Part shown: positions 8,099-62,242 of the stretch, one piece after another | Position numbering within the stretch: the stretch's first letter is position 1 | How the letters are laid out: each line of letters starts with the position of its first letter | Source of the DNA: an uncultured bacterium | Lineage (GTDB): Bacteria; Patescibacteriota; Minisyncoccia; Phycocordibacterales; GWA1-40-21 | Assembly (NCBI GenBank): GCA_963716205.1 | Contig: OY970290.1 | Coordinates: forward strand, 303,417 to 367,416 | Direction: 5' to 3' | DNA length: 64,000 bases | Notes under the pieces: model-generated | Database searches by the model: none | Seen by the model: the letters and a program-made list of their open reading frames with translations, nothing else | What the model was told of the DNA's origin: nothing | Position numbers and translations under genes: made by a program

Positions 8099-8109
8099 AT
8101 TTTATTTTT

Positions 8110-8745: not shown

Positions 8746-8746
8746 A

Positions 8747-33568: not shown

Positions 33569-35968
33569 TTATTTATTCAACAATGCTCTTGTCAAGGGTC
33601 CTACGCTTCCGACTTGTTGCAAGCCATTTTCTGCCTGAAATTGTATAACTGCGGCATACGTCAAACTTCCAAAATATCCTGTAATCGGACCGTTATAAAC
33701 TCCAAGCTGTGTCAGTCGCGTTTGAAGTTCGGTGACATCATAACTTCTTTCCCCATATCGTATCGGTGATGAGAAGATATACTGGCCACTTGAAACTATC
33801 GGAGTAGAAACCGGAGTTTGAACGGGAACGGATGTCACTGTTACAAAGAGCGGCTGGCAATTGCCGGTATTTGAACATATGGTAACTGATGCCGATCCGG
33901 AATTCACGCCATTCAAGACGAGAAGATCTCCATTAATATTTGCGTTAAAATACGAATTGATGCTTGAAGAGATGGAATAACTAGATGCACCGGACATTGT
34001 TACATATGCTGATTGTCCAACTTCAACTGTCGGATTAACTGGGCTGAATGTAATAACAGATGCAACACTTTCGGCATTTACTGTAATAAAAAGCGGAGAG
34101 CAGCTGTTTGACGAGGCACATACAACAGCGATTGCAGATCCGCTACTTACGCCGGTAACCGTCAGAATATTTCCCGAGATGGTAACTTGCGCCGCGTTTG
34201 GATTACTGTTTGATGCGAGAGAATAATAATTGCTTGCACCGCCAGAAACACTGACAGTAGTATTTTGTCCTGTTGATAATGTTACCGTATTCGGACTAAA
34301 AATTGGATTTGCCGTTGAGCTGATACTACCATTTGAACTGATGACATTCATCGAAAGTATATTACACTGACCTCCACTTTGACAGACGGTGATATTGGTA
34401 CTGCCCAAACTGTTTGCAGTGATAATAATTCCGGATCCGGTGAGTGTATATGAAGCAACGGATGGATTGGTATTTGTGGTGACATAGTATTCTCCAGTAC
34501 CGGTAAATGAAACGGAAGCATTTTGTCCGGCGGTCATTGAAAAATTATTCTGGCTGAAAGCCGGTTGCAGATTTCCAGAACCAACTCCCGCAGAATTAAC
34601 CGTAACGCTAAGTCCTACGCATCCCCCGCCGGCAGAACAAACAGAAAGAATGGATGATCCGGCGGAAAGACCTGTTATATTGATAATATTATTTGAAAGT
34701 GATGATTGAAAAATTCCACTGACCGTCGGCGTCGCTAAACTGTATGGCGCTTCACCGCCAGAAACAGTAACCGAAAGCGTTTGTCCCAAAAGGAGGGTAA
34801 TTGAAGATTGGCTCAAGGACATTGCTCCGCCGGTTGCAGTATAGCTTACCGTCGGCGTGATAGTGCTGCAGCTTCCGCTTGTTGAACAAACAGTGATTGT
34901 CGCGGTTCCCGTTGTATCTCCATACAGATTCAAAGTATTTCCGGAAATTGTCGGACTGACGACAGACGGATTGGAATTTGAAGATATTGTGTATGTGCCG
35001 CTTCCGCCTGAAATTGAAATCGGCAATGTTTGTCCTGTTGCAAGAGTCGGATATGTTTGGCTGAATGTAACACCGGTCGTCGACACAGCTCCGATGGTCG
35101 CATTAATAATTCCACAGGAACTCATATCGCTTGAACAAACAGTAATTGAAGCACTTCCACCTGTTCCCGTCCCATAAAGATTGATTGTATTTCCATTTAT
35201 CAAGCTTGCAGTGATTACTGAAGAATTTGAATTCGTTAATATAGTGTATGATCCTGTTCCGCCAGAAATGGTAATTGGCACCGTTTGTCCGTTTGCAACC
35301 GTAATATTATTTTGATTGAACGTAATCGGCTGTATCGAACTATTATTTTGCGATGGCACCGTAACATACAAACTTCCGCAATTTGTCGTTTGATTGAGCG
35401 GACAAACAGTAAGAACGCTTGAGCCGACGCTTAAAGCGGTGAATGTAATTTGATCGCCTGAGATACCGACATTGGTAGTGACGGCAGGATTTGAATTATT
35501 TGATATATATAATGTGCCGGTGTTGTCGTTCGGATTTATCGTAACGGTTGTTGTTTGACCGACAGTCATGACCAAGCTTGTTTGAGAAAAAGAAACTGCG
35601 GTATTTGCGACAGAGGCTGAAATATTCGGCCATGCGACAGCTTGCGATTGCTGTCCGTCAACGACCACGTATGTGGAACCGCCGGAAGCGATATTGTATT
35701 GCGTTGAATTCAAAACGATCGAAGCAGTGCCGTTTGCAGCTGTTGTGCCGATCGGCTCGATCGATAATCCCTGGCTTGTGCTCTGATAATAAAATACAAC
35801 GCTTGAATTCGGATCACCGACGACATCGACCTCAACGTTACTTCCGTTGATATTTGAAAATGAAAGCGATGGCGTCATTGCGTATGCATTTCCCGTAAAA
35901 ATGAAAAAAGCCGCAAAAGTAAAAACACTTGCAAGTAATGAAAAAACAGATTTTTTAGAAAAGATCAT
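33569..35968 (-). CDS. Large secreted surface protein: ~8 tandem Ig-like (Big-2-like) repeats with C-terminal peptidoglycan-binding (PG_binding_1-like) domain
   Basis: Signal peptide; ~75-80 aa repeats each with conserved TVC...C pair (e.g. ...SVLTVCPLNQTTNCGSLYVTV, ...ASITVCSSDMSSCGIINATI); C-terminal YDVTELQTRLTQLGVY-GPITGYFGSLTYAAVIQFQAENGL; 799 aa. Confidence 0.65.
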   Translation of the reverse strand: MIFSKKSVFSLLASVFTFAAFFIFTGNAYAMTPSLSFSNINGSNVEVDVVGDPNSSVVFYYQSTSQGLSIEPIGTTAANGTASIVLNSTQYNIASGGSTYVVVDGQQSQAVAWPNISASVANTAVSFSQTSLVMTVGQTTTVTINPNDNTGTLYISNNSNPAVTTNVGISGDQITFTALSVGSSVLTVCPLNQTTNCGSLYVTVPSQNNSSIQPITFNQNNITVANGQTVPITISGGTGSYTILTNSNSSVITASLINGNTINLYGTGTGGSASITVCSSDMSSCGIINATIGAVSTTGVTFSQTYPTLATGQTLPISISGGSGTYTISSNSNPSVVSPTISGNTLNLYGDTTGTATITVCSTSGSCSTITPTVSYTATGGAMSLSQSSITLLLGQTLSVTVSGGEAPYSLATPTVSGIFQSSLSNNIINITGLSAGSSILSVCSAGGGCVGLSVTVNSAGVGSGNLQPAFSQNNFSMTAGQNASVSFTGTGEYYVTTNTNPSVASYTLTGSGIIITANSLGSTNITVCQSGGQCNILSMNVISSNGSISSTANPIFSPNTVTLSTGQNTTVSVSGGASNYYSLASNSNPNAAQVTISGNILTVTGVSSGSAIAVVCASSNSCSPLFITVNAESVASVITFSPVNPTVEVGQSAYVTMSGASSYSISSSINSYFNANINGDLLVLNGVNSGSASVTICSNTGNCQPLFVTVTSVPVQTPVSTPIVSSGQYIFSSPIRYGERSYDVTELQTRLTQLGVYNGPITGYFGSLTYAAVIQFQAENGLQQVGSVGPLTRALLNK

Positions 35969-41002: not shown

Positions 41003-42211
41003 TTAATTTTTCCCATTATAAATTGCATTCAGCAAACTAAATGTTTTTGAACCAAAAATAGTTTCACCGGTAATATTGTATTTTTGCTGGAACGCTTTCA
41101 CCGCAAGTTCCGTGCATGTGCCGATGGATCCGCTGTGTGGACATTCGTTTCGTGTCATTCCTGCCGGAGGATAATCTCCGTCCATAATCAAAGCTGTCTG
41201 CATCGCATAAATATCTTCAGCGTTTGAATTTTTGCTTGTCACCGGTGTGTTCCATGCATAAATATTTTCACTTGGATCATAAGAAGAAGTCGCAGTGACA
41301 TTTGTATTTCCAGTATAGTAATCCTGCAAACCGAGGTATGTCTGATAGGCGAGATCTTTCAGTGCAATGGGGCGTGTGATCGGATTGACGAATTGCGGTT
41401 CATAAATGTAATCATATTCGATGAGAATGGCTGCTGGCTTTGCCGTGTTATAGGCACCGATGCCGATCAATTGAGGATCTTGAATAAGGCCAGGTTCTTG
41501 AATTGGAAGATCACTTGTCGGATTATAAAGCGACAGTCTGTTGAAAACCGCTTCAGCAACCGGCTTTGTGGTGGAACTGTTGTCATAAATATTCGGCGGA
41601 TAATATTCGACAAAGCCGGTGTATTTGCCGACCGCGTTATAGGCATTGCCGCGATAATTATTGACGCAGATATTAATCATGAAATTTATATCATTCTCAT
41701 CTGCCCACTTCGTGGCACCATAGATGCGGATTGCATCATCTGTTGGCGCAGTATTGTGAACTTCGCCATCATTAAAAATAGCCGCGATTGCCGGATTAGC
41801 CATAGCTGTCTCTTTTGCAGCCTGTTCCCAACTTACGATAGCATTCCAGTTGGTATTAAAATAATTTTGGAATGTTGGATTCCATGCTTGCGTCGTGCGG
41901 GTGACATATGTCTGATAGTTTCCATTGCCATCCAGAAACTCTTGCAAATCATCGCCGATGGTCACTGCCAAATCACGCTCATAGATTTCACCGGATGGTG
42001 TTGCCATCTGTGTTCCGCCCTCGTCCGGCTCATGGGCGGGCACGATCATGACACGGATTTTTTTACCGTTTGAAAATGTAGCAGAAGCCGTTGCAGCCAT
42101 TTTCGGTGCCGCTTTAACGGTGAATTGAAAAGAATAATGATCCGCGGCATACCAAACCCCACCGATGATTACTGCCGCCAAAAATAATTTGAAAATGAAT
42201 TTATTTTTCAC
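41003..42211 (-). CDS. Secreted cell-wall amidase (Amidase_3-like N-acetylmuramoyl-L-alanine amidase) with C-terminal peptidoglycan-binding-like domain
   Basis: Signal peptide; RVMIVPAHEPDEGG...YERDLAVTIGDDLQEFL...YVTRT (Amidase_3 pattern); C-terminal ...TELAVKAFQQKYNITGETIFGSKTFSLLNAIY; 402 aa. Confidence 0.55.
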   Translation of the reverse strand: MKNKFIFKLFLAAVIIGGVWYAADHYSFQFTVKAAPKMAATASATFSNGKKIRVMIVPAHEPDEGGTQMATPSGEIYERDLAVTIGDDLQEFLDGNGNYQTYVTRTTQAWNPTFQNYFNTNWNAIVSWEQAAKETAMANPAIAAIFNDGEVHNTAPTDDAIRIYGATKWADENDINFMINICVNNYRGNAYNAVGKYTGFVEYYPPNIYDNSSTTKPVAEAVFNRLSLYNPTSDLPIQEPGLIQDPQLIGIGAYNTAKPAAILIEYDYIYEPQFVNPITRPIALKDLAYQTYLGLQDYYTGNTNVTATSSYDPSENIYAWNTPVTSKNSNAEDIYAMQTALIMDGDYPPAGMTRNECPHSGSIGTCTELAVKAFQQKYNITGETIFGSKTFSLLNAIYNGKN

Positions 42212-42295
42212 AGGCCAATTGTATCAGACTGAAAATAAAAAGTCATTCAAATTTTAGAAAATAAAAAAGCCCATCTTTTGACGGGCTTTTGTGCT

Positions 42296-42515: not shown

Positions 42516-45500
42516 TTATCGCACCAGCACAAATCCTTTTTCGGCATCAAGTTTTTTGAAAAGAACATATTTTGAACCAAGTTTCAGTCTTGAAAAATTG
42601 TTCTGTATGATCACCTCACTTGGTATTTTTTCCAGTCCGCCATATTGTTTTTTCAACTTTTCTCCTATTCCAAGTATTTCTTTTTCATTTGCGAGAATTT
42701 TCTTATCTTCGCTATTCAGATCAATTTCATACTTTTTACCACCAATTTCAAACTCACTTATTACTTTTCTAGAATCGCTCAATGTAGCTTTTTTCTTTGA
42801 AATCTTGAGTGCGTCCCTATTCCACGATTTTTCTCCTGCGACCATTTCCGATGTGCTAGCATCCAAATCTTTTTCCTTTTGTAGTGTCACGAACATGGAG
42901 CGATAATTGCTTCCGTGCAGAGCCTCTCCGGTATACTCGTCCACAATTTTAAAACCCAAATCTTTTGTCAACGACTTAAAACTATCGAAATCCTTAAAAT
43001 CAAGCGAGTAAATCATGTTCATGACGAATGATCCGCCCAATTTCAATACTCTGTTCATTTCAGAAAGTACCTTTAGACGTTCGTTATTTCCTTTGATTGG
43101 TTCAGCGGTGTAATGGAATGATAAGCATAAGTTCGTGAAATCGAATGACTTATTTGCGAATGGTATATTCAAGAAACTGCCGGCAACATTTTTTGCACCT
43201 TCGCTTTTCTCACTAGTAAAATGGCGCTCGTTCATATCCATACTGACAATATTATTCTGTAAGTTGTCAGCAATATGTCGTTTGAGCATCTCCGGACCTG
43301 AGGCCACATCAAGAATTTTCACGTCTTTCATTTCTTTATCTTTTATTAGATGCTCAATAATGGATCCTGAGACCCTGTTTGCGTTCGCTTGGTAATTTCT
43401 ACTACCCATATCGAGATAGGCTTCGGCATATTCATCCCCATGCTTTGCGATAAATTCGGAAAAGTCTGATTCACTTACTGATTTTACCGAACGGAAAATA
43501 CGAAATAATTTATCAAAACTCGAAAGATAAAAACGAGCAAGTTCGGCGTTCACGCTGAGATCTGCTGTGCCTTTTTCACTTTCTTTCAAGATTTCTTTTT
43601 CAATCTCTGTGACAGGTATTCCCTTGAGTAATTTTTCAACCGCCTTTTCTTTGATATCAATATATCGATGTATTCCCTCTTCAATAGAATCAGGGACGAT
43701 AGAGGTGACAACATCGAGATCATTTTTCATACCGACACGATATACACGGGATCGTTCCTGTCGTTCCTCGCTTTTCGTCCACGGTTCGTTATAGAACAAA
43801 ACGCTTTCGCCAGCTGAATAATCAACGCCGACTCCGGCAGTCTGCCCGCTAACCACGAGCAATATTTTTCCATCTCCATTTTTAAATTGTTCTTGAATCC
43901 TATCTCTTTCTTCCTTTTCTGTTTCTCCATGGACGATAAGAATTTTAACATCCTCTGGTAAATGAAAATTGTTTAATATCGATTTATCTCCCCGAATAAC
44001 ATCTTCCACGTAGTCGTTTACAAACATAAGAACTTTATTTTTCTGCTTGAATGTTTCGTTTAGATCCTGACCAACGGTTTCCGCTTTGATATTTTTGACC
44101 CCTGGGGTTGCTTCAAGTAATTCTGGGTTCAAAAGGAATTTTCGCATTACCTGAATTTTTTCCGTCGGCGAGAGAGAATCTTCCTCAAGAAGAAGTTCAT
44201 AGATACTTCTTTCATTTTCCGAAAGTCTGCTAAGCAGTACTCTCTCAATCATCTGGGGCATTTCGATATGCTCAGCCAGACTTTTCATTTGCATCTTGTT
44301 GACAAGCAACTTTCTTAATTCGGTGATATCACCGTTGATGATCGAACTAACAAGGTTTTTGTTTTCCATCTTTTCATACTTTTCCGGGTAGAGAAGTTTG
44401 AGTAGCATCGCAACATCCTGAATTTTGTTCGGAACCGGAGTACCGGAAAGAAGCGCCAGATATTGATCCTCTGTTTTTATCATGTCAGCAAGTATAATGG
44501 CGTTCTCCGCACGCACTCCTTCCTTCACATTCTTTATTTCATGCACTTCGTCAATGATCAACATGTCATAACCGATATCGTGCAATTTTTTCGTATTCTC
44601 GGCATTCAGTCTTTCCTGGGAAATCAACACGTAATCGAGATTCTCCCTATCCAAATTGTCCAGATCAAAAATGTTTTCTATGGTCAGGATTTTTGGCGCT
44701 TGTCCTGGTTTGAAATATCCAACTTGTTTCCCGTCCCCCGATACTTCGTCCGAAAGATATTTTTGCCATGTGCTTAACACATTACTTGGAGCTACAATTA
44801 AGCCAAGTTTTACGCCTAAACATTCTTTGGCAAGTATGGCAGAAGCGCTTTTGCCAACTCCCATTTCATCGGCAATAAGCAGACGCTTTTTGTCGGCAAT
44901 TTCCTTAATATTGATAGATTGGTAAATGTCAGGAAAATTCCTGTTTTCCTGAACATTATCAATCAATCGGTCTGGTTTTTCAAAACCGTGATCAACTGAT
45001 CTATAATAGTCCATCGTCGATTGAATAACCTCATCAAGTTCTGAACTGTTGAGTTTTTTGTTTTCATCCGAAATCTTGTTAAAAAATTCTCCAAAAATAA
45101 CTTTATCTGAATCAATTCTTTTATTTCTTTTTTCACCAAGATAATATTGAAGCGCAGAATCCTTCAATACCTCAAAAAGACCCGCTTTCAAATCTTTCTC
45201 TTTTATCAAATTAGATGAGACAGCGTACTCAAGATTTTCGGTATTAAATGGTATTCTGAGAAGTAAATAGTTACCAAGATATTCCGATATGATCTTATTT
45301 GCTTTTTCGACAGGTAAACCCTTGAAGTCTGGGTGCTGGGCGTACAATACGTCCAAAAAGCGTGAGGAACCGAATAAGCCGACTAATTTTCCAAATTTTT
45401 TCGCTTCTTCCGATTCACCCTTTCCTATATCCTCACATTTTACCTTTAATTCTTTTTCCAAATTTTCCTGAGAGTTTTTTTCATTCAATGATTCTTCGCG

Positions 45501-45653
45501 AAGTAGTTTCATTACTTCTTCTTGTGCTTCCGGAGAAAGAAACAAAGTTTTTTTACCGTTTTTTCCACGAAAATAGTCGTATTTTTTCCCAGAGTTCTCC
45601 GGATTTGATTGGGTTGATTCAATCGTATTATTAAAGGGTATTTTTTCGCTCAT
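42516..45653 (-). CDS. SNF2-family helicase fused to C-terminal class-I SAM-dependent methyltransferase domain
   Basis: SNF2_N motifs (LLIADEMGVGKS; MLIIDEVHEIKN), helicase-C region, then ILDVASGPEM...LKLGGSFVM (MTase motifs I/post-I); 1045 aa; last gene of 4-gene operon. Confidence 0.8.
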   Translation of the reverse strand: MSEKIPFNNTIESTQSNPENSGKKYDYFRGKNGKKTLFLSPEAQEEVMKLLREESLNEKNSQENLEKELKVKCEDIGKGESEEAKKFGKLVGLFGSSRFLDVLYAQHPDFKGLPVEKANKIISEYLGNYLLLRIPFNTENLEYAVSSNLIKEKDLKAGLFEVLKDSALQYYLGEKRNKRIDSDKVIFGEFFNKISDENKKLNSSELDEVIQSTMDYYRSVDHGFEKPDRLIDNVQENRNFPDIYQSINIKEIADKKRLLIADEMGVGKSASAILAKECLGVKLGLIVAPSNVLSTWQKYLSDEVSGDGKQVGYFKPGQAPKILTIENIFDLDNLDRENLDYVLISQERLNAENTKKLHDIGYDMLIIDEVHEIKNVKEGVRAENAIILADMIKTEDQYLALLSGTPVPNKIQDVAMLLKLLYPEKYEKMENKNLVSSIINGDITELRKLLVNKMQMKSLAEHIEMPQMIERVLLSRLSENERSIYELLLEEDSLSPTEKIQVMRKFLLNPELLEATPGVKNIKAETVGQDLNETFKQKNKVLMFVNDYVEDVIRGDKSILNNFHLPEDVKILIVHGETEKEERDRIQEQFKNGDGKILLVVSGQTAGVGVDYSAGESVLFYNEPWTKSEERQERSRVYRVGMKNDLDVVTSIVPDSIEEGIHRYIDIKEKAVEKLLKGIPVTEIEKEILKESEKGTADLSVNAELARFYLSSFDKLFRIFRSVKSVSESDFSEFIAKHGDEYAEAYLDMGSRNYQANANRVSGSIIEHLIKDKEMKDVKILDVASGPEMLKRHIADNLQNNIVSMDMNERHFTSEKSEGAKNVAGSFLNIPFANKSFDFTNLCLSFHYTAEPIKGNNERLKVLSEMNRVLKLGGSFVMNMIYSLDFKDFDSFKSLTKDLGFKIVDEYTGEALHGSNYRSMFVTLQKEKDLDASTSEMVAGEKSWNRDALKISKKKATLSDSRKVISEFEIGGKKYEIDLNSEDKKILANEKEILGIGEKLKKQYGGLEKIPSEVIIQNNFSRLKLGSKYVLFKKLDAEKGFVLVR

Positions 45654-45702: not shown

Positions 45703-47136
45703 CTAGTCACCTTTTAGTCTTTTTAAAATTTTTTTCTTATCGAGACCAGTTTCTTCTGCAATATTATCTAAAGATACCCAACCTTGTGGAGGTTCTGGCG
45801 TTAATTTTTCATCAATAAGTTCAACTAATTTTGGTGAATAATAATATGCCATAGCACCGCCCTTAGGATTTCTGAACATTCCCCTTTCTTTTTCAAGATC
45901 AGAGTTTTTTTCAATCAATCTATCGACAGTTTTTGTAATAGTCAAACTGTTAGCTTTTCTTTTTTCTTTGAGATTTAGTAATGACATCCAATTTTCTGGA
46001 GCCTCTAATATTAAATCTTTCTCAAAAAGTCTGATTAGTTCGGGAGAATAAAAATATGTTACAGGCCCACCTTTTGGATTTTTAAATATCCCCCTTTCTT
46101 TCTCAAGATTGGGATTTTTCTCGATCAATCTCTCAATTACCCCATCGATTCCTGTTCTGCTTATTTTTATTATTTTTAATTTTTCGTGAAGATCCAATGC
46201 TGGTATCCAATTTTCAGGGGCTTCAGGCATCAAGTTCTCATCAATAAGTTCGATTAGTTTGGGTGAATAGTAGAGCGATTTCAACCCATTTGGATTTCTA
46301 AACATTCCGGTTTCCTTCTCAAGCTCAGGGTTATTTCCAATTAATTCATTAATCACCCTTTCGATTGCAACTCTGCTAAACTTTATTTTCTCTTTAAGAA
46401 AACTAGGCATAGATATCCAATTTTCAGGTGCCTCAGGCACCAAGTTCTCATCAATAAGTTCGATTAGTTTAGGTGAAAAATATATAGTGGGCATTCTATT
46501 TTCGTTCGTAAATACTCCCTTTTCTTTCTCAAGTTCAGGAGTTTTTTCAATTAATCTATCAACTATTCCTTCGATCGCCTTTCTACCTAATTTTGGTTTT
46601 TCCTTGAGAAGGCTTGGGAATGATACCCAATCCTTTGGAGATTCTTGATTTAATTTTTTTATTTTATCTTCAATCAATTTCACTAATTCTGGTGAGTAAT
46701 GAATAACTGATTTTCCGGCACTTGGTGAACGAAACATTTTAATATTTTCTTCCGCTTTCAATTTTCCGTCTGATTCATCAATGATTTGTTCAGCATATTT
46801 TCTAACAGTCGATTGATCAATATCATATCTGTCTATAATTGCAGTTTGTGTTGTCCAATCTTTTGGTGCGTCTTCAGTCAAATTTTTCTCAACTAATTCT
46901 ACAATTGCTGGTGAAAAATAAAATGACTTCCCCGTTTCTGAATTTCTAAATATCCCCCTCTCACTTTCAAGTTCTGGAAATTTTTCAATTAATCTATTGA
47001 CTAATCCATTGAACGCAGTTTTTTTGAGATTAAATCTTTTCTTAAGATCAGGTGTAGATACCCAATTTTCCGGAGCCTCCGTTGCTTCGGGTTTTTGTTC
47101 TGACTCAAAATTGTTTGTAAGGAATTTTTCTGACAT
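45703..47136 (-). CDS. Tandem-repeat protein (~6 copies of a ~70-aa HTH-like module)
   Basis: Repeat consensus PE(A)PE-W-s-L-sL-EK-g-sk--I---a-KIIEES-G-L-K--E-G-F-S-K-g-P--YySPkLVELIE--L; 477 aa. Confidence 0.7.
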   Translation of the reverse strand: MSEKFLTNNFESEQKPEATEAPENWVSTPDLKKRFNLKKTAFNGLVNRLIEKFPELESERGIFRNSETGKSFYFSPAIVELVEKNLTEDAPKDWTTQTAIIDRYDIDQSTVRKYAEQIIDESDGKLKAEENIKMFRSPSAGKSVIHYSPELVKLIEDKIKKLNQESPKDWVSFPSLLKEKPKLGRKAIEGIVDRLIEKTPELEKEKGVFTNENRMPTIYFSPKLIELIDENLVPEAPENWISMPSFLKEKIKFSRVAIERVINELIGNNPELEKETGMFRNPNGLKSLYYSPKLIELIDENLMPEAPENWIPALDLHEKLKIIKISRTGIDGVIERLIEKNPNLEKERGIFKNPKGGPVTYFYSPELIRLFEKDLILEAPENWMSLLNLKEKRKANSLTITKTVDRLIEKNSDLEKERGMFRNPKGGAMAYYYSPKLVELIDEKLTPEPPQGWVSLDNIAEETGLDKKKILKRLKGD

Positions 47137-47141: not shown

Positions 47142-49016
47142 TTAAATATTGTTTCCTTTAATTATCCTTTTTATTTTTTCTTTACTTATTCCGATTTTTT
47201 CCGACAAAGAATCTATACTCTCCCATCCTTTTGGGGCTTTTTCTGGTAAATTTTTCTCAATTAGTTCAATTAGTTTTGGAGAAAAGTATGTTGCGGGTAA
47301 ACCACTTTTTTTAGAGGCAAACATTTTTTCTTCTTTTCCCAATCCATTGTTCGATTCCTCAATTATTTTCTTGGCTATACCCTTAATTATGGAGACACTG
47401 ACATTATTTTTTTCTGCAATCGAAACCAAACTTATCCATCCTTCAGGACTCTGCTGAGGAAGACTTTGTTCAACTAAATCAACTAATTTTGGCGAAAGAA
47501 ATAATGTAGATTTGTTATTCTCAGAAAAGAATATACCCGCTTCTTTTCCGAGTTTCCCCTTCGATTCTTCAATTATTTTTTCAGATCTACTTTTAATTGT
47601 ATTTGGATCAACTTGATTTTTTTTTGCTATAGAAGCTATACTTAACCACCTATCAGGTGCTTCGTGCGGTATTTTTTTTTCAATCAATTCCACTAATTTG
47701 GGAGAGTAATATATTGCTGGCGGACCCATTTTTTTAGCAGAAAATTTTTTCATTTCCTCATTAAGTTTTCCATCTGATTCATTGATTATTTTTTGAGCAA
47801 TATTTTCAATAAACCCCTTACTGATTGAATATTTATTTACAAAGAAATTCGAGTCAGCCCATCCATAAGGAGCTTTCTCGGATAAATCTTCTTCAAGTAA
47901 TCTGACTAGTTTGGGCGAATAATATGATGTTGGAGGACCCTTCTTTTTAGAAAAAAATATTCCTGATTCTTCATCCTCTTTAAGATTCCCGTTTGATTCC
48001 TCGATTATTCTATTAACCTTATATGCAATTCCTGTTTTTGTAACTCCATATTTTTCCGCTAGAGAAATCAGATCTATCCACCCAATAGGTGGTTCTTGGG
48101 GTAGAATCCTTTCTATTGATTCTACTACTTTTGCCGAATAATATTTTGTTGGTTTATGGTTTTTGGCCCAAAATATCCCTGTATCCTTTTCTTCCGAAAG
48201 CTCACCTTTTGACTCCTCAATTATTTTTTTTGCTCTATTTTCATATGCTATTCTACTAATTCCATATTTTTTAGTTAGAGAAATTATATCAGACCATCCC
48301 TCAGGCGCTTTTTCAGGTAAGTCTCTTTCAATTAATTCTACCAGTCTAGGTGAATAATACATTGTTAGATTGCCGGACTTCTTAGACGAGAACATTCCAA
48401 CATTTTCGATTTTTTTGAGATTTTCATTTGAATCCCCAATTATTTTTTGAGCTAAATTTTCAATCGTTTTTTTATTTATTCTGTGTTTTTCAGCAAAAGA
48501 AATCCGATCGACCCATCCATCAGGTGCTTCGTGCGGTATTTTTTTTTCAATCAATTCCACTAATTTGGGAGAGAAAAAAGTTGATGGTTCATTATTTATT
48601 TTTGATGGAAACATTGACCTTTCTTTTTCTAGATTTCCATTTGACTCCTCAATTATTTTTTCAACAATTTTTATAATAGTGGGCATACTAATCCCGTATT
48701 TTTGTACTACAGATGTCATACTCACCCATTCCCCAGGTGCTCTTTTGGGTAGTTTTTTTTCAATTAATTCCACGAGTCTAGGTGAATAATATACTGCAGT
48801 AGGAATTTTTTGTGATGAAAATATCCCAATATCGTCTTTTTTAGTAAGACTTCCGTTCGATTCCCCAATTATTTTTTGAGCCAAATTTTCAATTAGTCCT
48901 CTACCAAATCCATACTTTTCTGTAAGAGAAACCAACATTTGCCATCCATCCGGAGATTCTACTGCTTCCGGTTTTTGTTCTGGCTCAAAATTGCTTATAG
49001 GAAATTTTTCTATCAT
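47142..49016 (-). CDS. Tandem-repeat protein (~9 copies of the same ~70-aa module)
   Basis: Same repeat; N-terminus MIEKFPISNFEPEQKPEAVESPDGW paralogous to neighbours; 624 aa. Confidence 0.7.
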   Translation of the reverse strand: MIEKFPISNFEPEQKPEAVESPDGWQMLVSLTEKYGFGRGLIENLAQKIIGESNGSLTKKDDIGIFSSQKIPTAVYYSPRLVELIEKKLPKRAPGEWVSMTSVVQKYGISMPTIIKIVEKIIEESNGNLEKERSMFPSKINNEPSTFFSPKLVELIEKKIPHEAPDGWVDRISFAEKHRINKKTIENLAQKIIGDSNENLKKIENVGMFSSKKSGNLTMYYSPRLVELIERDLPEKAPEGWSDIISLTKKYGISRIAYENRAKKIIEESKGELSEEKDTGIFWAKNHKPTKYYSAKVVESIERILPQEPPIGWIDLISLAEKYGVTKTGIAYKVNRIIEESNGNLKEDEESGIFFSKKKGPPTSYYSPKLVRLLEEDLSEKAPYGWADSNFFVNKYSISKGFIENIAQKIINESDGKLNEEMKKFSAKKMGPPAIYYSPKLVELIEKKIPHEAPDRWLSIASIAKKNQVDPNTIKSRSEKIIEESKGKLGKEAGIFFSENNKSTLFLSPKLVDLVEQSLPQQSPEGWISLVSIAEKNNVSVSIIKGIAKKIIEESNNGLGKEEKMFASKKSGLPATYFSPKLIELIEKNLPEKAPKGWESIDSLSEKIGISKEKIKRIIKGNNI

Positions 49017-49023: not shown

Positions 49024-51558
49024 TTAGGATATATTTTTATTAATAATCCTTCTAATTTTCTCCGCGTCTATTTTAGTATTTTTTGCAAGTGTCTCTACAC
49101 TAGTCCAACCTTCAGGGGGTTGATCAAGGGTTTCTCGGGAAAATTTTTCATTAATTAGCTCAACTAATCTTGGCGAATAATATATGGCAAGCCCACCAGA
49201 AGATCGAAACATTCCCATATCCATACTTTCCTTCAATTTTCCGTTCGATTCCAGGATTATCTTTTCAGCTGTATTTTTAACCGTGCTTGGATTAAATCCA
49301 TATTTTTTTGCGAGTGACACCCTGTCCATCCAATTTTCTGGTGCCTTCTTGGGCAGTCCTTGTTCGATCAATTCAACCAGTTTTGGTGAAAAATATGTTG
49401 TTAACCTATTATTACTTTTTTTTGACGGAAAAACACCGATTTCTTCATCCTCCTTCAATTTTCCGTTCGATTCATTAATTATTTTTTTAACTCGTTTTTG
49501 GATCGTCAATCTATTAACTTCATATTTTTCCATAAGGGAAACCATATCAGACCATCCCATTGGTGCTTCTTTGGGCAATCCTTGTTCGATTAATTCAATT
49601 AACTTTGGTGAGAAACATGTGGTAGGCATACCACTCTTTTTTGATCGAAATATTCCCATTTCATCCTCTTCCTTGAGTTCACCCTTTGACTCTTCAATTA
49701 TTTTTTTTGCTTTACGTTGAATATACTGATTATCAGTATTATATTTTTCCGCTAGAGATGCCAAATCCGCCCAATCTTTTGGGGCTTCTTTTAGTAAATC
49801 CTTCTCGATTAATTTAACTAATCGTGGTGAAATATATATTGAAGGTCTCTTACTTTTTTTTGACAGGAAAACACCCATTTCGTCTTCTTTCTTGAGCTCT
49901 CCATTTGATTCCTCAATTATCTTTTTAACCCTACCCTCAATTTTTGTTCTACTAGAATCATCTTTTTCTGAGAAAGAAAGCATACTTATCCATCCTTCTG
50001 GAACTTCTTTAGGTAAATTTTTTTCAACTAGTTCAACTAATTTTGGTGAGAGGTATACGGACGGAGGACCACCTTTGGGGGAAGGATAAATTCCCATCTC
50101 CTCATCTTTTTTGATCTTTCCGTTCGATTCTTCAATTATTTTTTTTATTCTATTTTTAATAGTGCTTTTATCTGCTCTACTTTTTTTTGTAACGGAACCT
50201 AAATCCAGCCATCCTTCGGGTACTTCCTTGGGTAGTCTCTGCTCAATCAATTCAATTAGTTTGGGTGAGAAATACATAGTTAACCTATTACGTTTTTTTG
50301 ATGGGAACATACCCATCTCATTGTCTTTTTTGAGTTCCCCCCCTGATTCCTCAATTATTTTTTTGGCCCTGTTTTCAATTATTGTTTTATCTATCCCATA
50401 TTTCTCTGTAAGTGGAATTATACTTATCCATCCATCAGGAGTTTTTTCAGGCAACTGTTGTTTAATCAATTCAACCAATCTTGGTGATAAATGCATGGAA
50501 GGACTACCGTTTTTATTCGAGGGGAAGATTCCCATCTCCTCATCTTTTTTGATCTTTCCGTTCGATTCTTCAATTATTTTTTGGGCTCTGCTTACAATCA
50601 TTGTTGCACCAAATCCGTATCTTTCCATAAGAGAAGATAAATCGGTCCAACCTTCAGGTGCATCTTTCGGCAATTCTTTTTTAATGAGTTCTGCAAACTC
50701 AGGAGAGAAATATGTTGTGGGATAACCACTTTTTTTAGCAGGAAAGGTCCCCATTTTTTTCGCAAGTTTTCCGTTCGATTCCTCGATTATTTTTTGGGCT
50801 CTATTCTCGACTATTGATCTGCTAGTTTTGTATTTTTTTAAAAAAGAAATTAGGTCTATCCATCCTTCGGGGGCTTCTTTCGGTAAATTTTTCTCGACCA
50901 ATTTAACTAACTTTGGTGAGTAATATATCGCTAATCCCCCAGGAGATCGAAACAACCCCGTTTCTTCACCTTCTTTCAGTTCTCCGTTTGATTCCTCAAT
51001 TGTTTTTTGTATTCTTCTTTTAAGAACATTCTCACCAACAGCATATTTTTCCATAAGCGTAGGCGTGTCTACCCAACTCATAGGGGCCTCGTTCGGCAAT
51101 TCTTTTTTAATGAGTTCTGCAAACTCAGGAGAGAAATATGTTCCGGGCACCCTACCCCTTTTAGACATAAATTCCCCAACCTCTTCAGTGAGATTTCCGT
51201 TTGATTCTTGAAGTAATTTTTTAACCCTCTTTTCAATAGTTCCTCTGCTGAGTTTATGCTCCTCAGCAAAAGAAACTAAATCTATCCATCCTTTTGGTGC
51301 TTCCTTAGGTAGATTTTTTTCTATTATCTCTGTCAACTTAGGTGATAAGTATTTTGCCGGTTTACCACCGTTTTTAGATTTAAACATCCCTATTTCCTCT
51401 GCTATTTCTCCGCTCGATTCCTCAACTATTTTCTGGACCCTTCTTTCGATTACACCCTTATCAAATCCAAATTTTTCTGCGAGAGAGGTTATATCTGTCC
51501 ATTCTTCAGGAGCTTCCTGAATTGACTCATTTGAATTAAATGGAAATTGTTCAGTCAT
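49024..51558 (-). CDS. Tandem-repeat protein (~12 copies of the same module); start moved to MTEQFPFNSNES by homology with paralogues
   Basis: 12 repeats, e.g. PEGWTDLSSLMERYGFGATMIVSRAQKIIEESNGKIKKDEEMGIFPSNKNGSPSMHLSPRLVELIKQQLPEKT; ORF extends to 51753 but upstream 65 aa are non-repeat and unlike paralogue N-termini. Confidence 0.7.
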   Translation of the reverse strand: MTEQFPFNSNESIQEAPEEWTDITSLAEKFGFDKGVIERRVQKIVEESSGEIAEEIGMFKSKNGGKPAKYLSPKLTEIIEKNLPKEAPKGWIDLVSFAEEHKLSRGTIEKRVKKLLQESNGNLTEEVGEFMSKRGRVPGTYFSPEFAELIKKELPNEAPMSWVDTPTLMEKYAVGENVLKRRIQKTIEESNGELKEGEETGLFRSPGGLAIYYSPKLVKLVEKNLPKEAPEGWIDLISFLKKYKTSRSIVENRAQKIIEESNGKLAKKMGTFPAKKSGYPTTYFSPEFAELIKKELPKDAPEGWTDLSSLMERYGFGATMIVSRAQKIIEESNGKIKKDEEMGIFPSNKNGSPSMHLSPRLVELIKQQLPEKTPDGWISIIPLTEKYGIDKTIIENRAKKIIEESGGELKKDNEMGMFPSKKRNRLTMYFSPKLIELIEQRLPKEVPEGWLDLGSVTKKSRADKSTIKNRIKKIIEESNGKIKKDEEMGIYPSPKGGPPSVYLSPKLVELVEKNLPKEVPEGWISMLSFSEKDDSSRTKIEGRVKKIIEESNGELKKEDEMGVFLSKKSKRPSIYISPRLVKLIEKDLLKEAPKDWADLASLAEKYNTDNQYIQRKAKKIIEESKGELKEEDEMGIFRSKKSGMPTTCFSPKLIELIEQGLPKEAPMGWSDMVSLMEKYEVNRLTIQKRVKKIINESNGKLKEDEEIGVFPSKKSNNRLTTYFSPKLVELIEQGLPKKAPENWMDRVSLAKKYGFNPSTVKNTAEKIILESNGKLKESMDMGMFRSSGGLAIYYSPRLVELINEKFSRETLDQPPEGWTSVETLAKNTKIDAEKIRRIINKNIS

Positions 51559-51655
51559 ATGACTACGGTATAACAAATTTGCCGAAAATGCAAATAAAAA
51601 CTTGCATAAAATATTAATGTATGTTATGGTAAAGCCCGAAAGAGAGGTGTACCTT

Positions 51656-51973
51656 ATGGATCTCATATCAGTTTCTTCGACGAAGTTTCGCAACAAGGAG
51701 GATGGAACTGAGTTCACGGTTGTCAAAGCCAAACGCTTTGAGAAGCATAACATCAGGAAATACAGACAGTACCTGATGTCACTCTCAGACGGAAAGCTCG
51801 TGGGCGTTTACTTCTACGGCCAACTGGTGCCCCTCATCACCGTAACTACCGGTGTCGAGAAGCTCACCCAGGTGACCGTCGGGAAAAAACTGCTACGTAC
51901 GGCAGCCGAGATAAGCAAGGCCCTGGGAATCAAGAAACCCAAAAAGCCCGTTCCGCTTGTTCTCGTTTCGTAG
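51656..51973 (+). CDS. Hypothetical protein (GC-rich, RBS AGAGAGG, strong terminator)
   Basis: MDLISVSSTKFRNKEDGTEFTVVKAKRF...; 106 aa; visibly higher GC than surroundings. Confidence 0.5.
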   Translation: MDLISVSSTKFRNKEDGTEFTVVKAKRFEKHNIRKYRQYLMSLSDGKLVGVYFYGQLVPLITVTTGVEKLTQVTVGKKLLRTAAEISKALGIKKPKKPVPLVLVS

Positions 51974-51993: not shown

Positions 51994-52033
51994 CGCACTC
52001 ATGACTTATGGTCGTGAGTGCGTTTTATTTTTT
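51994..52033 (+). terminator. Rho-independent terminator
   Basis: CGCACTCATGAC-TTATG-GTCGTGAGTGCG then TTTTATTTTTT. Confidence 0.65.
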
Positions 52034-54085: not shown

Positions 54086-54868
54086 TTGGGAAAACATCAT
54101 TTAATCTGTGGAAGCGCTCTCGATCCAAAAATCGTGGAAAAGCTCATGGATGGCGCAAAGGCGGATTTAATTGATGATGATGTCCCATTCAATATTCGGC
54201 TTCCGTACGATAAATATGGCGGAACATATGAAGATGACAAGACAGACGAAGAATATGAGACGTTTGTGAAGACAATCATGCAGAACGCCCTATCGGTGGC
54301 CAAGAATGATGCACATATCGTTTTTTGGTGCGATGAGCGATACGTTTGGTTACTGGAAGTGCTTTATAAAAAATTCAGGATTGATTCAAAGAGGCTCCTT
54401 GTTTGGTGTAAAAACAATTCGTCGCCGACTCCGAGTTGCGCCTTCAACAAAGTGACGGAGTTTGCAGTGTACGGAACTATAGGAACTCCATTTCTTGCCC
54501 AAAATATCACTAATCTGAATCAAATTCAGAATCACGAGATGACGACCGGCAACAGCTTGCACGATGAGATCATGGATTTCTTCAATATCATGCTCACCAA
54601 AAGGTTACCGAGCAACAAATACGAACATTCGGCACAAAAAGATCCGTCCATCCACTACAAAGTTCTGAAAAGATGCACACGGGTCGGAGACGTTGTTTTG
54701 GATCTCACGGCGGGCACGGGAAGTCTCTTGATAGCATGCGAACAATTAAAGAGAATCGCCTACGTATGCGAACTTGATCCAAAGTTCTGCCAGCTCATCA
54801 TCAATCATTACGAAGCGCTTACGGGCGATAAGGCTAAACTGATCCACTCCGATGAAACAACGAATTAA
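54086..54868 (+). CDS. Beta-class DNA methyltransferase (N6-adenine or N4-cytosine)
   Basis: N-terminal HHLICGSALDP...ADLIDDDVPFN (motif IV, DPPY-like) followed by C-terminal VLDLTAGTGSLLIA (motif I, FxGxG) = circularly permuted beta-class order; 260 aa. Confidence 0.8.
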   Translation: MGKHHLICGSALDPKIVEKLMDGAKADLIDDDVPFNIRLPYDKYGGTYEDDKTDEEYETFVKTIMQNALSVAKNDAHIVFWCDERYVWLLEVLYKKFRIDSKRLLVWCKNNSSPTPSCAFNKVTEFAVYGTIGTPFLAQNITNLNQIQNHEMTTGNSLHDEIMDFFNIMLTKRLPSNKYEHSAQKDPSIHYKVLKRCTRVGDVVLDLTAGTGSLLIACEQLKRIAYVCELDPKFCQLIINHYEALTGDKAKLIHSDETTN

Positions 54869-56240: not shown

Positions 56241-56308
56241 TCCGCTATATTAGCAAAAAAGAACATTAAAGGCGATATTTAATGCGACTTGATTACTGCT
56301 CAACTCGG

Positions 56309-56379
56309 CTGGGGGACTAGGAATCGGACCTAGATTAAAAGCTTCAAAGGCTTCTGTCCTACCGTTAGACGATCCCCCA
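56309..56379 (-). tRNA. tRNA-Gln (anticodon UUG)
   Basis: Manually folded on the minus strand. Acceptor UGGGGGA/UCCCCCA is a perfect 7 bp. U8, D-stem GUCU/GGAC and D-loop with GG are present. Anticodon stem GAAGC/GCUUU with loop CUUUGAA gives U33 and anticodon UUG. T-stem is CUAGG/CCUAG. The T-loop UCCGAUU carries the non-canonical C55. Discriminator is G. Confidence 0.6.
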
Positions 56380-62096: not shown

Positions 62097-62170
62097 GAAG
62101 ATATGGTATCATAAAATGAATAGTAAAGACTTCACTTTTTATATCCGATCTGCTATTATGGCGACGTATT

Positions 62171-62242
62171 CCGGGATAGCTCAGCGGTAGAGCGATCGCC
62201 TGTTAAGCGATTGGTCGTAGGTTCGATCCCTACTCCCGGAGC
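62171..62242 (+). tRNA. tRNA-Asn (anticodon GUU)
   Basis: Manually folded. Acceptor UCCGGGA/UCCCGGA is 7 bp. D-arm is GCUC-AGCGGUA-GAGC. Anticodon stem AUCGC/GCGAU with loop CUGUUAA gives anticodon GUU. T-arm is GUAGG-UUCGAUC-CCUAC. Discriminator is G. Confidence 0.85.

What the first reader, a model, noticed from the sequence alone, without database searches (positions are those of the whole stretch)
42516..45653. SNF2 translocase fused to a small-molecule-type (Methyltransf_11-like) SAM methyltransferase rather than a canonical DNA MTase
The C-terminal domain has motif I (ILDVASGPE) and post-I/II (LKLGGSFVM) typical of class-I Rossmann MTases, but lacks an obvious DPPY/NPPY or PCQ DNA-MTase catalytic motif. 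Known helicase-MTase fusions on plasmids and phages usually carry bona fide N6A/N4C/C5 DNA MTases. The target (DNA base, RNA, protein or small molecule) is therefore unclear. The N-terminal ~250 aa before the SNF2 core have no recognisable motif.
Basis: partly seen in the sequence, partly recalled or inferred. Interest (0 to 1): 0.6.

Follow-up and report, generated by a model that had tools for sequence, protein, structure and literature searches.

The report
Array-guided SNF2 motor with Rrp8-like methyltransferase
This gene encodes a DNA-motor protein fused to a methyl-transfer enzyme of a type normally used on ribosomal RNA, not DNA; it belongs to a rare, unstudied family found only in the tiny "CPR" bacteria, and here its DNA-binding repeat arrays are encoded by three separate upstream genes that appear built to plug into it.

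Summary
ORF 42516-45653 (-) encodes 1045 aa: an intact Snf2 ATPase (aa ~233-690) followed by a class-I SAM methyltransferase (aa ~777-932). The MTase matches Methyltransf_11 and, by both profile and fold, is closest to Rrp8/nucleomethylin (PDB 2zfu). It has no DPPY/NPPY or PCQ/ENV motif and hits no DNA-MTase family.

New findings:
1. It belongs to a rare family seen only in Patescibacteria/CPR (~150 clusters at 50% identity). The MTase plus basic C-terminal subdomain occurs almost only at the C-terminus of this fusion.
2. The N-terminal ~220 aa form a confidently predicted all-alpha domain with no PDB or viral fold match.
3. About 80% of homologues carry N-terminal arrays of ~72-aa winged-HTH-like repeats. 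Here those arrays sit in three upstream co-directional genes (11, 8 and 6 repeats).
4. Each array protein ends with the first half of a repeat, and the SNF2-MTase starts with the second half. The same break recurs in other genomes, suggesting docking by fragment complementation.
5. A conserved ~105-aa protein is encoded divergently.

Likely function: an array-targeted, ATP-driven methyltransferase acting on DNA-associated substrate. The substrate is unknown. Verdict: new variant of the helicase-methyltransferase theme; interest 0.6.

The parts
42516..45653 (-). SNF2-MTase gene 'Q' (1045 aa), last gene of the unit
   Evidence: ORF; Pfam SNF2-rel_dom, Helicase_C and Methyltransf_11; more than 120 full-length CPR homologues.
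45495..45590 (-). aa 22-53: second half of a repeat unit (beta-hairpin 'wing' plus helix, ...YDYFRGKNGKKTLFLSPEAQEEVMKLL)
   Evidence: AF2 gives strands at 25-29 and 35-39, then a helix. In 15/15 fused homologues the aligned segment is the second half of a complete terminal repeat. In-silico rejoining with the A/B/C tails gives full-length repeat-HMM matches of 27.7-40.8 bits, and 0/300 shuffled joins reach them. On its own the match is weak: 5.2 bits, with 16/1000 shuffles scoring as high.
44988..45410 (-). aa 82-222: family-specific all-alpha N-domain
   Evidence: AF2 pLDDT mostly 94-98 over this span. No Foldseek match in the PDB (best E 0.24, TM<=0.25) or in BFVD. Conserved residues include D101, G127 and Y217.
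43584..44957 (-). aa 233-690: Snf2-family ATPase core with motifs I (DEMGVGKS), II (DEVH), III (LSGTP), V (GQTAGVGVD) and VI (NEPWT..Q..R.YR.G)
   Evidence: Pfam. End-to-end phmmer alignment to SSO1653 (1z63, E 7.9e-15) and CHD1L. The motifs are conserved across the family.
43335..43547 (-). aa 703-773: three long helices preceding the MTase, carrying invariant Y742, Y746, R752, N757 and R760
   Evidence: AF2 model; invariant columns.
42858..43325 (-). aa 777-932: class-I SAM methyltransferase core, Methyltransf_11 / Rrp8-like. Motif I LDVASGPE, motif II acidic D806, post-beta4 (L/F)HY(T/S)
   Evidence: Pfam; profile versus PDB, top hit 2zfu at E 2.8e-7; Foldseek versus PDB, top hit 2zfu at E 4e-10; motif analysis.
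42519..42857 (-). aa 933-1045: conserved basic alpha/beta C-terminal subdomain (net charge +7), packed on the MTase
   Evidence: AF2 pLDDT 85-97, pTM 0.88; charge; all homologues end at the same C-terminus; the module is found almost only in this fusion.
45703..47136 (-). Array protein C (477 aa): leader, 6 full ~72-aa repeats and a terminal first-half repeat
   Evidence: Repeat HMM domains; homologous to the N-terminal extensions of fused homologues.
47142..49016 (-). Array protein B (624 aa): leader, 8 full repeats and a terminal first-half repeat
49024..51558 (-). Array protein A (844 aa; true start is the ATG at 51558, not 51753): leader, 11 full repeats and a terminal first-half repeat
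   Evidence: The 844-aa product is in the public collection as P0241.
51656..51973 (+). Conserved small protein (~105 aa, no known family), divergently transcribed from the unit
   Evidence: tblastn E 4e-13 to small proteins that flank the family in 10 other loci. No Pfam, PDB or PHROG hit.
51994..52022 (+). Terminator-like hairpin (13-bp stem plus T-run) after the small gene
42265..42290 (-). Terminator-like hairpin (11-bp stem plus T-run) downstream of the SNF2-MTase; probable end of the transcription unit

Best explanation
The locus encodes a multi-part, ATP-driven, array-targeted methyltransferase machine restricted to CPR bacteria.

Shown:
- The 1045-aa protein has, in order: a half repeat, a novel helical domain, an intact Snf2 dsDNA-translocase-type ATPase, an intact Rrp8-like class-I SAM MTase, and a basic C-terminal subdomain.
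- In most relatives, arrays of winged-HTH-like ~72-aa repeats are fused to its N-terminus.
- In this genome the arrays are three separate proteins: A with 11 repeats, B with 8 and C with 6.
- Each array protein ends in the first (HTH) half of a repeat. The enzyme begins with the missing second half (wing plus helix).

Inferred:
- A, B or C docks on the enzyme by reconstituting that split repeat. This would give up to three alternative holoenzymes with different DNA-binding arrays.
- The arrays bind DNA and position the enzyme.
- The Snf2 motor tracks along or distorts duplex DNA.
- The MTase then methylates a substrate exposed there. By analogy with its nearest relatives (Rrp8 m1A, Bud23 m7G, METTL6 m3C), the most likely substrate is a nucleobase ring nitrogen in DNA or in DNA-associated RNA, not the exocyclic amino group or C5 targeted by canonical DNA MTases.

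The logic resembles Dnmt5 and the DarB-type methylase-helicase dyad, where a Snf2 ATPase is required for methyl transfer. The catalytic module differs.
For: - Domain architecture and intact motifs.
- MTase nearest to Rrp8/NML by profile and by fold. Methyltransf_8 hits in 11/14 members, best E 5.7e-11.
- No DNA-MTase motif or family.
- The MTase plus C-subdomain module occurs almost only at the C-terminus of 1000-2600-aa Snf2 proteins, so the two activities are obligately coupled.
- The only basic segment of the enzyme is the C-subdomain next to the MTase.
- Repeats look like winged HTH. Profile hit to the HTH of 3r0a at E 0.002. HTH_29 (39.4 bits, above cutoff), HTH_23 and HTH_28 hits in fused homologue P0003. 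Variable positions cluster at the start of the putative recognition helix.
- Arrays are fused in 49 of 61 complete loci and split in about 6.
- Split-repeat evidence.
- Tight co-directional spacing of 5-49 nt and flanking terminator-like hairpins.
- Dnmt5 precedent for a Snf2 ATPase step essential for methylation (bioRxiv 10.1101/2020.01.05.895227). DarB-type dyad (PMC5512222).
Against: - No direct evidence for any substrate.
- Methyltransf_11-like folds also methylate proteins, lipids and small molecules; several such enzymes are close behind Rrp8 in the fold ranking.
- The window protein's Methyltransf_8 score (22-25 bits) is below Pfam's 27-bit cutoff.
- Ring-nitrogen methylation of DNA (m1A, m3C) is normally a lesion.
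- DNA binding by the repeats is inferred from weak HTH similarity only.
- The Q half-repeat match is weak on its own (5.2 bits).
- Other split loci with HNH_repeat-type arrays end in an acidic tail, not a half repeat. Docking by complementation is therefore not universal in the family.
- Co-transcription and physical interaction were not tested.
Confidence: 0.4

Rival explanations
1. Protein methyltransferase on DNA. The Snf2 motor and arrays bring the MTase to a DNA-bound protein (nucleoid protein, RNA polymerase, or the K/E-rich array proteins themselves), and it methylates Lys, Arg, Glu or an N-terminus.
For: Generic Methyltransf_11/25 hits. The fold hits include many non-nucleic-acid MTases. 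The array proteins are extremely K/E-rich and always co-encoded or fused. Nucleomethylin is chromatin-associated (own knowledge).
Against: The best profile and fold neighbour is an RNA-base MTase. The C-terminal subdomain is basic, which suits nucleic acid better. No similarity was found to known protein-MTase families such as PrmA, Methyltransf_16 or SET.
Confidence: 0.2
2. Component of an unrecognised conflict or defence (or counter-defence) system. This would be an accessory, horizontally moving Snf2-MTase that marks or damages foreign DNA, with fast-evolving arrays as specificity modules.
For: - Sporadic distribution: 57 of 185,579 species genomes, with a scan pattern that covers ~79% of the family, and 36 loci in 241 M metagenome contigs.
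- Star-like tree, with Saccharibacteria-labelled sequences in several places.
- Large serine recombinase within 0.2-4.4 kb in 8/57 loci.
- Paralogue expansion and variable array types.
- Array genes have low GC3 (0.23-0.30 against 0.41+/-0.07).
- Snf2-MTase pairing is typical of conflict systems (PMC5512222).
Against: - No PADLOC system match beyond generic Snf2 similarity.
- No nuclease or other effector partner is conserved in the neighbourhood.
- The module is absent from viral contigs, plasmids and phages.
- Neighbours are housekeeping genes.
- GC3 of the enzyme gene itself is normal.
- This rival concerns biological role and is compatible with the proposed mechanism.
Confidence: 0.2
3. 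RNA-modification or ribosome-biogenesis factor. An Rrp8-like rRNA (or other RNA) methyltransferase whose SF2 ATPase remodels RNA or RNP rather than DNA.
For: Rrp8 is the closest characterised MTase. Some homologues carry OST-HTH (PF12872) N-terminal domains.
Against: The ATPase is a true Snf2-family member aligning end-to-end with dsDNA translocases. The arrays are HTH-like. The rare, sporadic distribution does not fit a core ribosome function.
Confidence: 0.1
4. The MTase-like domain is non-catalytic (a SAM sensor or structural module), or it methylates a small molecule unrelated to the motor.
For: Motif I is atypical (D-x-A-S-G-P rather than D-x-G-x-G). Small-molecule MTases are among the fold hits.
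Against: Motif I, the motif II acidic residue and about 15 further residues around the predicted active site are invariant across about 50 diverged sequences. The obligate fusion to a DNA motor makes an unrelated small-molecule role unlikely.
Confidence: 0.07

Closest known systems
Rrp8 / nucleomethylin (Pfam Methyltransf_8; PDB 2zfu), the eukaryotic rRNA m1A methyltransferase (PMC6085284)
   Same: It is the best profile hit (E 2.8e-7) and best fold hit (E 4e-10, TMt 0.65-0.67) for the MTase domain. The shared segment after beta5 is ...NRVLKpGG...S.RF.D...F......LGFK.V. PF05148 hits 11/14 family members.
   Different: Rrp8 is a stand-alone nucleolar enzyme without an ATPase. The window protein scores below the PF05148 cutoff. 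The CPR domain has its own N-terminal helices, the motif LDxASGPE and a basic C-terminal subdomain. Its substrate is untested.
DarB-type 'DNA methylase-helicase dyad' of phage and conjugative-element polyvalent proteins (PMC5512222)
   Same: A SWI2/SNF2 ATPase is covalently coupled to a SAM methyltransferase. The proposed logic is that the motor enables methylation of DNA.
   Different: There the MTase is a bona fide DNA adenine methylase placed N-terminal to the ATPase, and the proteins are encoded on mobile elements. Here the MTase is C-terminal and Rrp8/Methyltransf_11-like without DPPY. The gene is chromosomal in CPR and absent from phage, plasmid and viral collections.
Dnmt5 (fungal and protist C5 DNA methyltransferase fused to a SNF2 ATPase; bioRxiv 10.1101/2020.01.05.895227 and 10.1101/2021.10.01.462825)
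   Same: A single polypeptide combines an MTase with a Snf2 ATPase, and ATP hydrolysis is coupled to methyl transfer. It is the best functional analogue.
   Different: Dnmt5 is eukaryotic. Its MTase is a C5 DNMT with PCQ/ENV motifs, and it has chromodomain and RING modules. There is no homology outside the Snf2 core.
Sulfolobus SSO1653 (SsoRad54, PDB 1z63) and CHD1L-type Snf2 cores
   Same: End-to-end alignment of the ATPase core with all helicase motifs.
   Different: These are minimal or chromatin-remodeller ATPases without an MTase, arrays or the N-terminal helical domain.
RapA/HepA and the defence Snf2 proteins (ZorD, DpdE, DrmD, BrxH)
   Same: All are bacterial Snf2-family ATPases. Partial HMM hits fall on the ATPase core only.
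   Different: Scores are far below the family cutoffs (for example RapA 23.7 bits against 576, DrmD 29 against 610). The accessory domains and partner genes that define those proteins are absent.

Membership tests
Snf2-family (SWI2/SNF2) SF2 ATPase | Pfam SNF2-rel_dom plus Helicase_C above gathering score; helicase motifs I, II (DExH), III, V and VI intact | tested here: met
   63.8 bits against a cutoff of 24.9, and 53.2 bits against 23.5. Motifs are conserved family-wide. Full-core alignment to 1z63.
Class-I SAM methyltransferase, Methyltransf_11 type | PF08241 above gathering score; motif I SAM loop and motif II acidic residue; Rossmann fold | tested here: met
   38.9 bits against a cutoff of 21.2. 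LDVASGPE and D806 are invariant. AF2 model with pLDDT 89 matches class-I MTases.
Rrp8 / Methyltransf_8 (rRNA m1A MTase) | PF05148 above its gathering score (27 bits) | tested here: inconclusive
   The window protein scores 22.2-24.6 bits, below the cutoff. Some homologues pass: P0002 at 27.8 and P0011 at 30.7. 11/14 members hit at E<=0.01. 2zfu is the top PDB hit by profile and by fold.
Rrp8 / Methyltransf_8 (rRNA m1A MTase) | N1-adenine methylation of large-subunit rRNA | not testable with these tools
   Needs biochemistry or RNA mass spectrometry.
DNA amino-methyltransferases (N6A/N4C; alpha, beta and gamma classes, MT-A70) | Catalytic motif IV (D/N/S)PP(Y/F/W/H) after beta4 | tested here: not met
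   The motif is absent from the whole protein. The post-beta4 sequence is NLCLSFHYT, and the family consensus is (L/F)HY(T/S). Only 1/175 members has an incidental NPPF elsewhere.
DNA amino-methyltransferases (N6A/N4C; alpha, beta and gamma classes, MT-A70) | Profile match to N6_Mtase, N6_N4_Mtase, MethyltransfD12, Eco57I or MT-A70 | tested here: not met
   None listed at E<=0.1 for the protein or at E<=0.01 for 14 family members. No DNA MTase in the top 50 fold hits.
C5 DNA methyltransferases (including Dnmt5) | PCQ (motif IV) and ENV (motif VI); PF00145 | tested here: not met
   No PCQ or ENV. No PF00145 hit.
DarB-like methylase-helicase dyad / polyvalent proteins of mobile elements | Adenine MTase N-terminal to SWI2/SNF2; encoded on a phage, plasmid or conjugative element | tested here: not met
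   The domain order is reversed and the MTase type differs. The module has no match in viral contigs, plasmids or phages. Phage similarity is limited to the Snf2 core.
RapA/HepA | NCBIfam PRK04914 above cutoff; RapA N-terminal and C-terminal domains | tested here: not met
   23.7 bits against a cutoff of 576. RapA is not among the 60 PDB matches listed, of 68 found.
Known Snf2-containing defence systems (Zorya ZorD, Dpd DpdE, DISARM DrmD, BREX BrxH) | Full-length model match and the system's partner genes nearby | tested here: not met
   Only partial hits on the ATPase core, at 29-74 bits. No partner genes in the window and no conserved partner across 57 loci.
Winged helix-turn-helix DNA-binding domains (for the 72-aa repeats) | Profile match to an HTH/wHTH family; helix-turn-helix followed by a beta-hairpin wing | tested here: inconclusive
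   The window repeat profile hits the HTH of 3r0a at E 0.002 over 31 residues. Window proteins give only sub-threshold HTH hits. Fused homologue P0003 passes HTH_29, HTH_23 and HTH_28. The wing and helix are seen in the AF2 model of Q aa 25-78. No structure of a whole repeat was predicted.

The most novel reading that the evidence does not exclude
CPR bacteria possess a remodeler-coupled 'writer' with no characterised counterpart in prokaryotes. A Snf2 motor delivers an Rrp8-like methyltransferase to DNA and installs a non-canonical mark: a ring-nitrogen base methylation on DNA or an R-loop, or methylation of a DNA-bound protein. Targeting comes from exchangeable winged-HTH repeat arrays that dock on the enzyme by completing a split repeat domain. 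That would make it a modular, programmable targeting system, and a prokaryotic analogue of eukaryotic Snf2-dependent methylation.
Probability: 0.2. Interest if true: 0.85.

Novelty: new variant of a known kind. Interest (0 to 1): 0.6.

Why it matters
Snf2-methyltransferase couplings are known in two settings: DarB-type dyads on mobile elements and Dnmt5 in eukaryotes. In both, the partner is a canonical DNA methyltransferase.

This family instead obligately couples a Snf2 motor to an rRNA-type (Rrp8-like) methyltransferase and to long arrays of HTH-like repeats. It is found only in the poorly understood CPR/Patescibacteria.

If the substrate is DNA or chromatin-like protein, it would reveal a new chemistry of genome marking in bacteria.

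If the split-repeat docking is real, it would be a natural example of exchangeable targeting subunits assembled by fragment complementation.

Both ideas can be tested directly with recombinant proteins.

Tried and rejected
- A search with the 73-position repeat profile against the 5.8-billion-protein set found nothing. The search with array protein B found only the in-genome paralogues. The word-based prefilter is weak on K/E-rich repeats. Homology of the repeats to the fused N-terminal extensions therefore rests on local BLAST and HMM.
- phrog_62 appeared to extend from the Snf2 core into the MTase. tblastn against phages showed similarity ending at about aa 680, so this was rejected as evidence for a shared MTase.
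- The shared N-terminal 'leader' (M-S-E-K-F-P...) was considered as a family-wide signal. Across 169 homologues only a weak M-[SP]-E-K bias exists, so it is best read as a trace of paralogy within operons.
- The RapA-like, DISARM/Zorya/Dpd/BREX and Type ISP readings were rejected on membership tests.
- Mobile-element cargo was considered. There are no hits in viral, plasmid or phage sets. The window's serine recombinase (62230-63936) abuts tRNA-Asn 10 kb away, with housekeeping genes (dnaX, dus, fmt) in between.
- The literature searches found no description of this family.
- The small neighbour protein has no Pfam, PDB or PHROG match.
- The organism name could not be recovered.


Full report
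**1. Observation**

The ORF lies exactly where stated: 42516..45653 on the minus strand, 1045 aa. Pfam gives SNF2-rel_dom (aa 254-494, E 1.8e-17), Helicase_C (aa 535-641, E 4e-14) and Methyltransf_11 (aa 781-878, E 1.4e-9). Weaker hits are Methyltransf_25, Methyltransf_8 and UbiE. NCBIfam adds only sub-threshold Snf2 and UbiE/BioC-type hits. The quoted motifs are present.

- There is no [DNS]PP[YFWH], PCQ or ENV motif in the protein.
- Only 1 of 175 family members has an incidental NPPF.
- The residues after beta4 are a conserved (L/F)HY(T/S).
- No DNA-MTase family is hit by the protein or by 14 diverse relatives.

**2. Anatomy of the protein**

*ATPase.* The ATPase is a genuine Snf2-family core. 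It aligns end-to-end with Sulfolobus SSO1653 (1z63, E 7.9e-15) and CHD1L. Motifs I, II, III, V and VI are conserved across the family. RapA is not among the listed matches.

*C-terminal third.* An AlphaFold2 model of aa 680-1045, built on 50 sequences, is confident (pLDDT 89, pTM 0.88). It shows three long helices, a Rossmann MTase core, and an extra alpha/beta subdomain (aa ~933-1045).
- Foldseek against the PDB ranks the nucleomethylin/RRP8 MTase domain (2zfu) first (E 4e-10, TMt 0.65-0.67). Uncharacterised Methyltransf_11 proteins follow, then lipid and small-molecule MTases and RNA-base MTases (METTL6, Bud23). No DNA MTase is in the top 50.
- An HMM built from the C-terminal region of 14 members also ranks 2zfu first (E 2.8e-7). 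The alignment includes the Rrp8-type segment after beta5.
- PF05148 (Rrp8 family) is hit by 11/14 members, best E 5.7e-11. The window protein itself stays just under the 27-bit cutoff.
- Invariant residues include the SAM loop D782-A-S-G-P787 and the motif II acidic D806. A cluster in the pre-MTase helices is also invariant: Y742, Y746, R752, N757 and R760. This argues for an active enzyme.
- The C-terminal subdomain is the only basic part of the protein (+7).

*N-terminal region.* A model of aa 1-260 is equally confident (pLDDT 88.7). It shows a beta-hairpin (aa 25-39), a long helix (aa 41-78) and an all-alpha domain (aa 82-222). This domain has no significant Foldseek neighbour in the PDB (best E 0.24) or among viral models.

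**3. The family**

More than 120 full-length homologues (E<1e-260, 42-49% identity) align from about aa 30 to the very C-terminus. Where the source gives a meaningful name, they come from Patescibacteria/CPR.

An exhaustive profile search with the MTase plus C-subdomain module found 154 clusters at E<=1e-30. Nearly all are the C-termini of 1000-2635-aa proteins, and the rest look like fragments. The module is therefore essentially exclusive to this fusion.

In species-representative genomes the module was found in 57 loci. They span Levy-, Roizman-, Taylor-, Kaiser-, Vogel-, Uhr-, Magasanik- and Doudnabacteria, Saccharimonadia, Peribacteria and Gracilibacteria. The scan pattern covers ~79% of the family, so the gene is rare and sporadic rather than universal. 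Only 36 loci turned up in 241 M metagenome contigs.

It is absent from viral contigs, plasmids and phage genomes. Phage similarity stops at the Snf2 core.

A quick NJ tree is star-like with partial taxonomic clustering. The window groups with Taylor- and Kaiserbacteria, while Saccharibacteria-labelled sequences fall in several places. Vertical descent with loss versus transfer remains open.

No paper in the held library describes the family.

**4. Surroundings: the decisive context**

All extra length in the longer homologues (up to +780 aa) is N-terminal.

The three genes immediately upstream lie on the same strand, separated by 5-49 nt.
- A, 49024-51558: 844 aa, 11 full repeats plus a terminal first-half repeat.
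- B, 47142-49016: 624 aa, 8 full repeats plus a first half.
- C, 45703-47136: 477 aa, 6 full repeats plus a first half.

The repeat unit is ~72 aa. The arrays are homologous to the N-terminal extensions of the fused homologues.

The first half of the unit resembles a helix-turn-helix.
- The repeat profile hits the HTH of the winged-helix regulator 3r0a (E 0.002).
- The fused homologue P0003 passes HTH_29, HTH_23 and HTH_28.
- The most variable repeat positions sit at the start of the putative recognition helix.

Other family members carry different N-terminal arrays, such as HNH_repeat (PF18780) and OST-HTH.

Of 61 complete loci, 49 are fused. About six are split, with 1-6 upstream paralogues. 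A few have no arrays.

**5. The split repeat**

A, B and C each stop after HMM positions ~25-29 of a unit, which is the HTH half. Q's aa 22-53 match positions 38-71, the wing plus helix.

That match is weak on its own: 5.2 bits, with 16/1000 shuffles scoring as high. Three independent observations support it.
- In 15/15 fused homologues, the segment aligned to Q aa ~22-53 is the second half of a complete terminal repeat, and its HTH half lies directly N-terminal.
- In-silico rejoining of the A, B or C tail to Q from residue 15-16 gives full-length repeat alignments of 40.8, 31.7 and 27.7 bits. None of 300 shuffled joins reaches these scores.
- The same break recurs in other genomes. In L049 three upstream proteins end just after the HTH half, and the enzyme starts '...IREYISPELAKIIE'. 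The L051 upstream protein ends '...NPEYF'.

I infer that the array proteins dock on the enzyme by completing this repeat. This is not shown. Split loci with HNH_repeat-type arrays use a shared acidic C-terminal tail instead, so the docking mode is not universal.

**6. Further parts of the locus**

A ~105-aa protein of no known family is encoded divergently at 51656-51973 (+). Homologues abut the family's operon in 10 other loci. It has no Pfam, PDB or PHROG match.

Terminator-like hairpins follow the small gene (51994-52022) and the enzyme gene (42290-42265).

**7. Mechanism**

The shown facts point to one functional unit: an obligate Snf2-MTase fusion with intact catalytic motifs in both enzymes, HTH-like arrays that are fused or co-encoded, and a basic subdomain beside the MTase.

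In the proposed model, the arrays bind DNA and the Snf2 motor tracks or distorts the duplex. The Rrp8-like MTase then modifies something exposed there.

The nearest characterised relatives methylate ring nitrogens of RNA bases, and the DPPY/PCQ chemistry is absent. I therefore commit to a nucleobase in DNA, or in DNA-associated RNA, as the most likely substrate (confidence ~0.4 for the overall model).

The main rivals are:
- a DNA-bound protein as substrate (0.2);
- a conflict or defence role, which concerns biology rather than mechanism and is compatible with the model (0.2);
- a pure RNA or ribosome role (0.1);
- a non-catalytic or small-molecule role (0.07).

**8. Comparison with known systems**

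It works like the DarB-type methylase-helicase dyad (PMC5512222) and like Dnmt5 (bioRxiv 10.1101/2020.01.05.895227), but it fails their membership tests on MTase class, domain order and genomic setting. It is a member of the Snf2 family and of the Methyltransf_11 class. Membership in the Rrp8 family proper is inconclusive.

**9. Verdict**

The gene belongs to an uncharacterised family seen only in CPR bacteria. The family is a new variant of the helicase-methyltransferase theme, with an unexpected modular, split-repeat organisation in this genome. Interest 0.6.

Noticed in passing
window 54086-56240: A separate compact Type II-like restriction-modification unit: an N6_N4_Mtase DNA methylase (54086-54868, +), an HTH protein (54852-55463, +) and a LlaMI/MvaI-BcnI-family restriction endonuclease (55464-56240, -, GC3 0.26). 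It lies next to tRNA-Gln (56307-56379). So the genome does carry a canonical DNA MTase elsewhere.
   Followed up: partly
window 62170-63936; also L006, L010, L015, L020, L033, L045, L048, L054: A large serine recombinase (Resolvase domain, 568 aa, 62230-63936, -) overlaps the 3' end of tRNA-Asn (62170-62242). Large serine recombinases (Resolvase plus Recombinase plus Zn ribbon) also lie within 0.2-4.4 kb of the SNF2-MTase gene in 8 of 57 other loci. No background rate for CPR genomes was available, so the enrichment is unproven.
   Followed up: partly
window 51656-51973 (+): The small conserved neighbour gene has GC 0.50 and GC3 0.65, against a window gene mean GC3 of 0.41+/-0.07. The three array genes have unusually low GC3 (0.23-0.30). 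This is strong compositional heterogeneity within one locus.
   Followed up: no
window 51559-51753 (-): The mechanical ORF for array gene A extends 65 codons upstream of the real start (ATG at 51558, MTEQFPFNS...). That extension overlaps the divergent small gene and is spurious. The 844-aa product is the one in public collections.
   Followed up: yes
L021/L003 (CAZHDZ010000004.1) 215-11104; L005/L001; L020: Other split loci carry 1-6 upstream paralogues with a different array type, HNH_repeat-like ('...GYPGG...ALKEKL'). Within each operon all genes share an N-terminal leader and a C-terminal acidic tail (ISPDQADELMRGLEEEI or ISPQEAKEEFDKLFE). This may be an alternative docking peptide.
   Followed up: partly
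L006, L016, L017, L020-L022, L026, L027, L039, L052, L053 (record titles): Several TPA metagenome bins that carry this family, otherwise seen only in CPR-named records, are titled 'uncultured Gammaproteobacteria' or 'Bdellovibrionales'. Contig sizes are up to ~0.9 Mb. These are probably mislabelled bins rather than true occurrences outside CPR.
   Followed up: no
L038, L039: The gene immediately upstream (L039), or next-but-one upstream (L038), of the SNF2-MTase begins MRLKSLELSGFKSF... or MFLQRVEMQGFKSF..., which looks like the N-terminus of an SMC protein (own knowledge; no profile search was run). This was seen in only two loci.
   Followed up: no
window 33569-35968 and 41003-42211: Two cell-wall-related proteins lie downstream of the unit: an Amidase_3 plus PG_binding_1 protein (402 aa), and a 799-aa protein with PG_binding_1 and a pilus-formation N-terminal region. 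An ABC-2 transporter pair lies between them.
   Followed up: no
window 42516-45653, aa 954-1012: There is a weak profile similarity (E ~0.02) between the C-terminal subdomain and the SaPI capsid-morphogenesis protein CpmB (6b23, 2l8t). It is probably a chance helical match.
   Followed up: no
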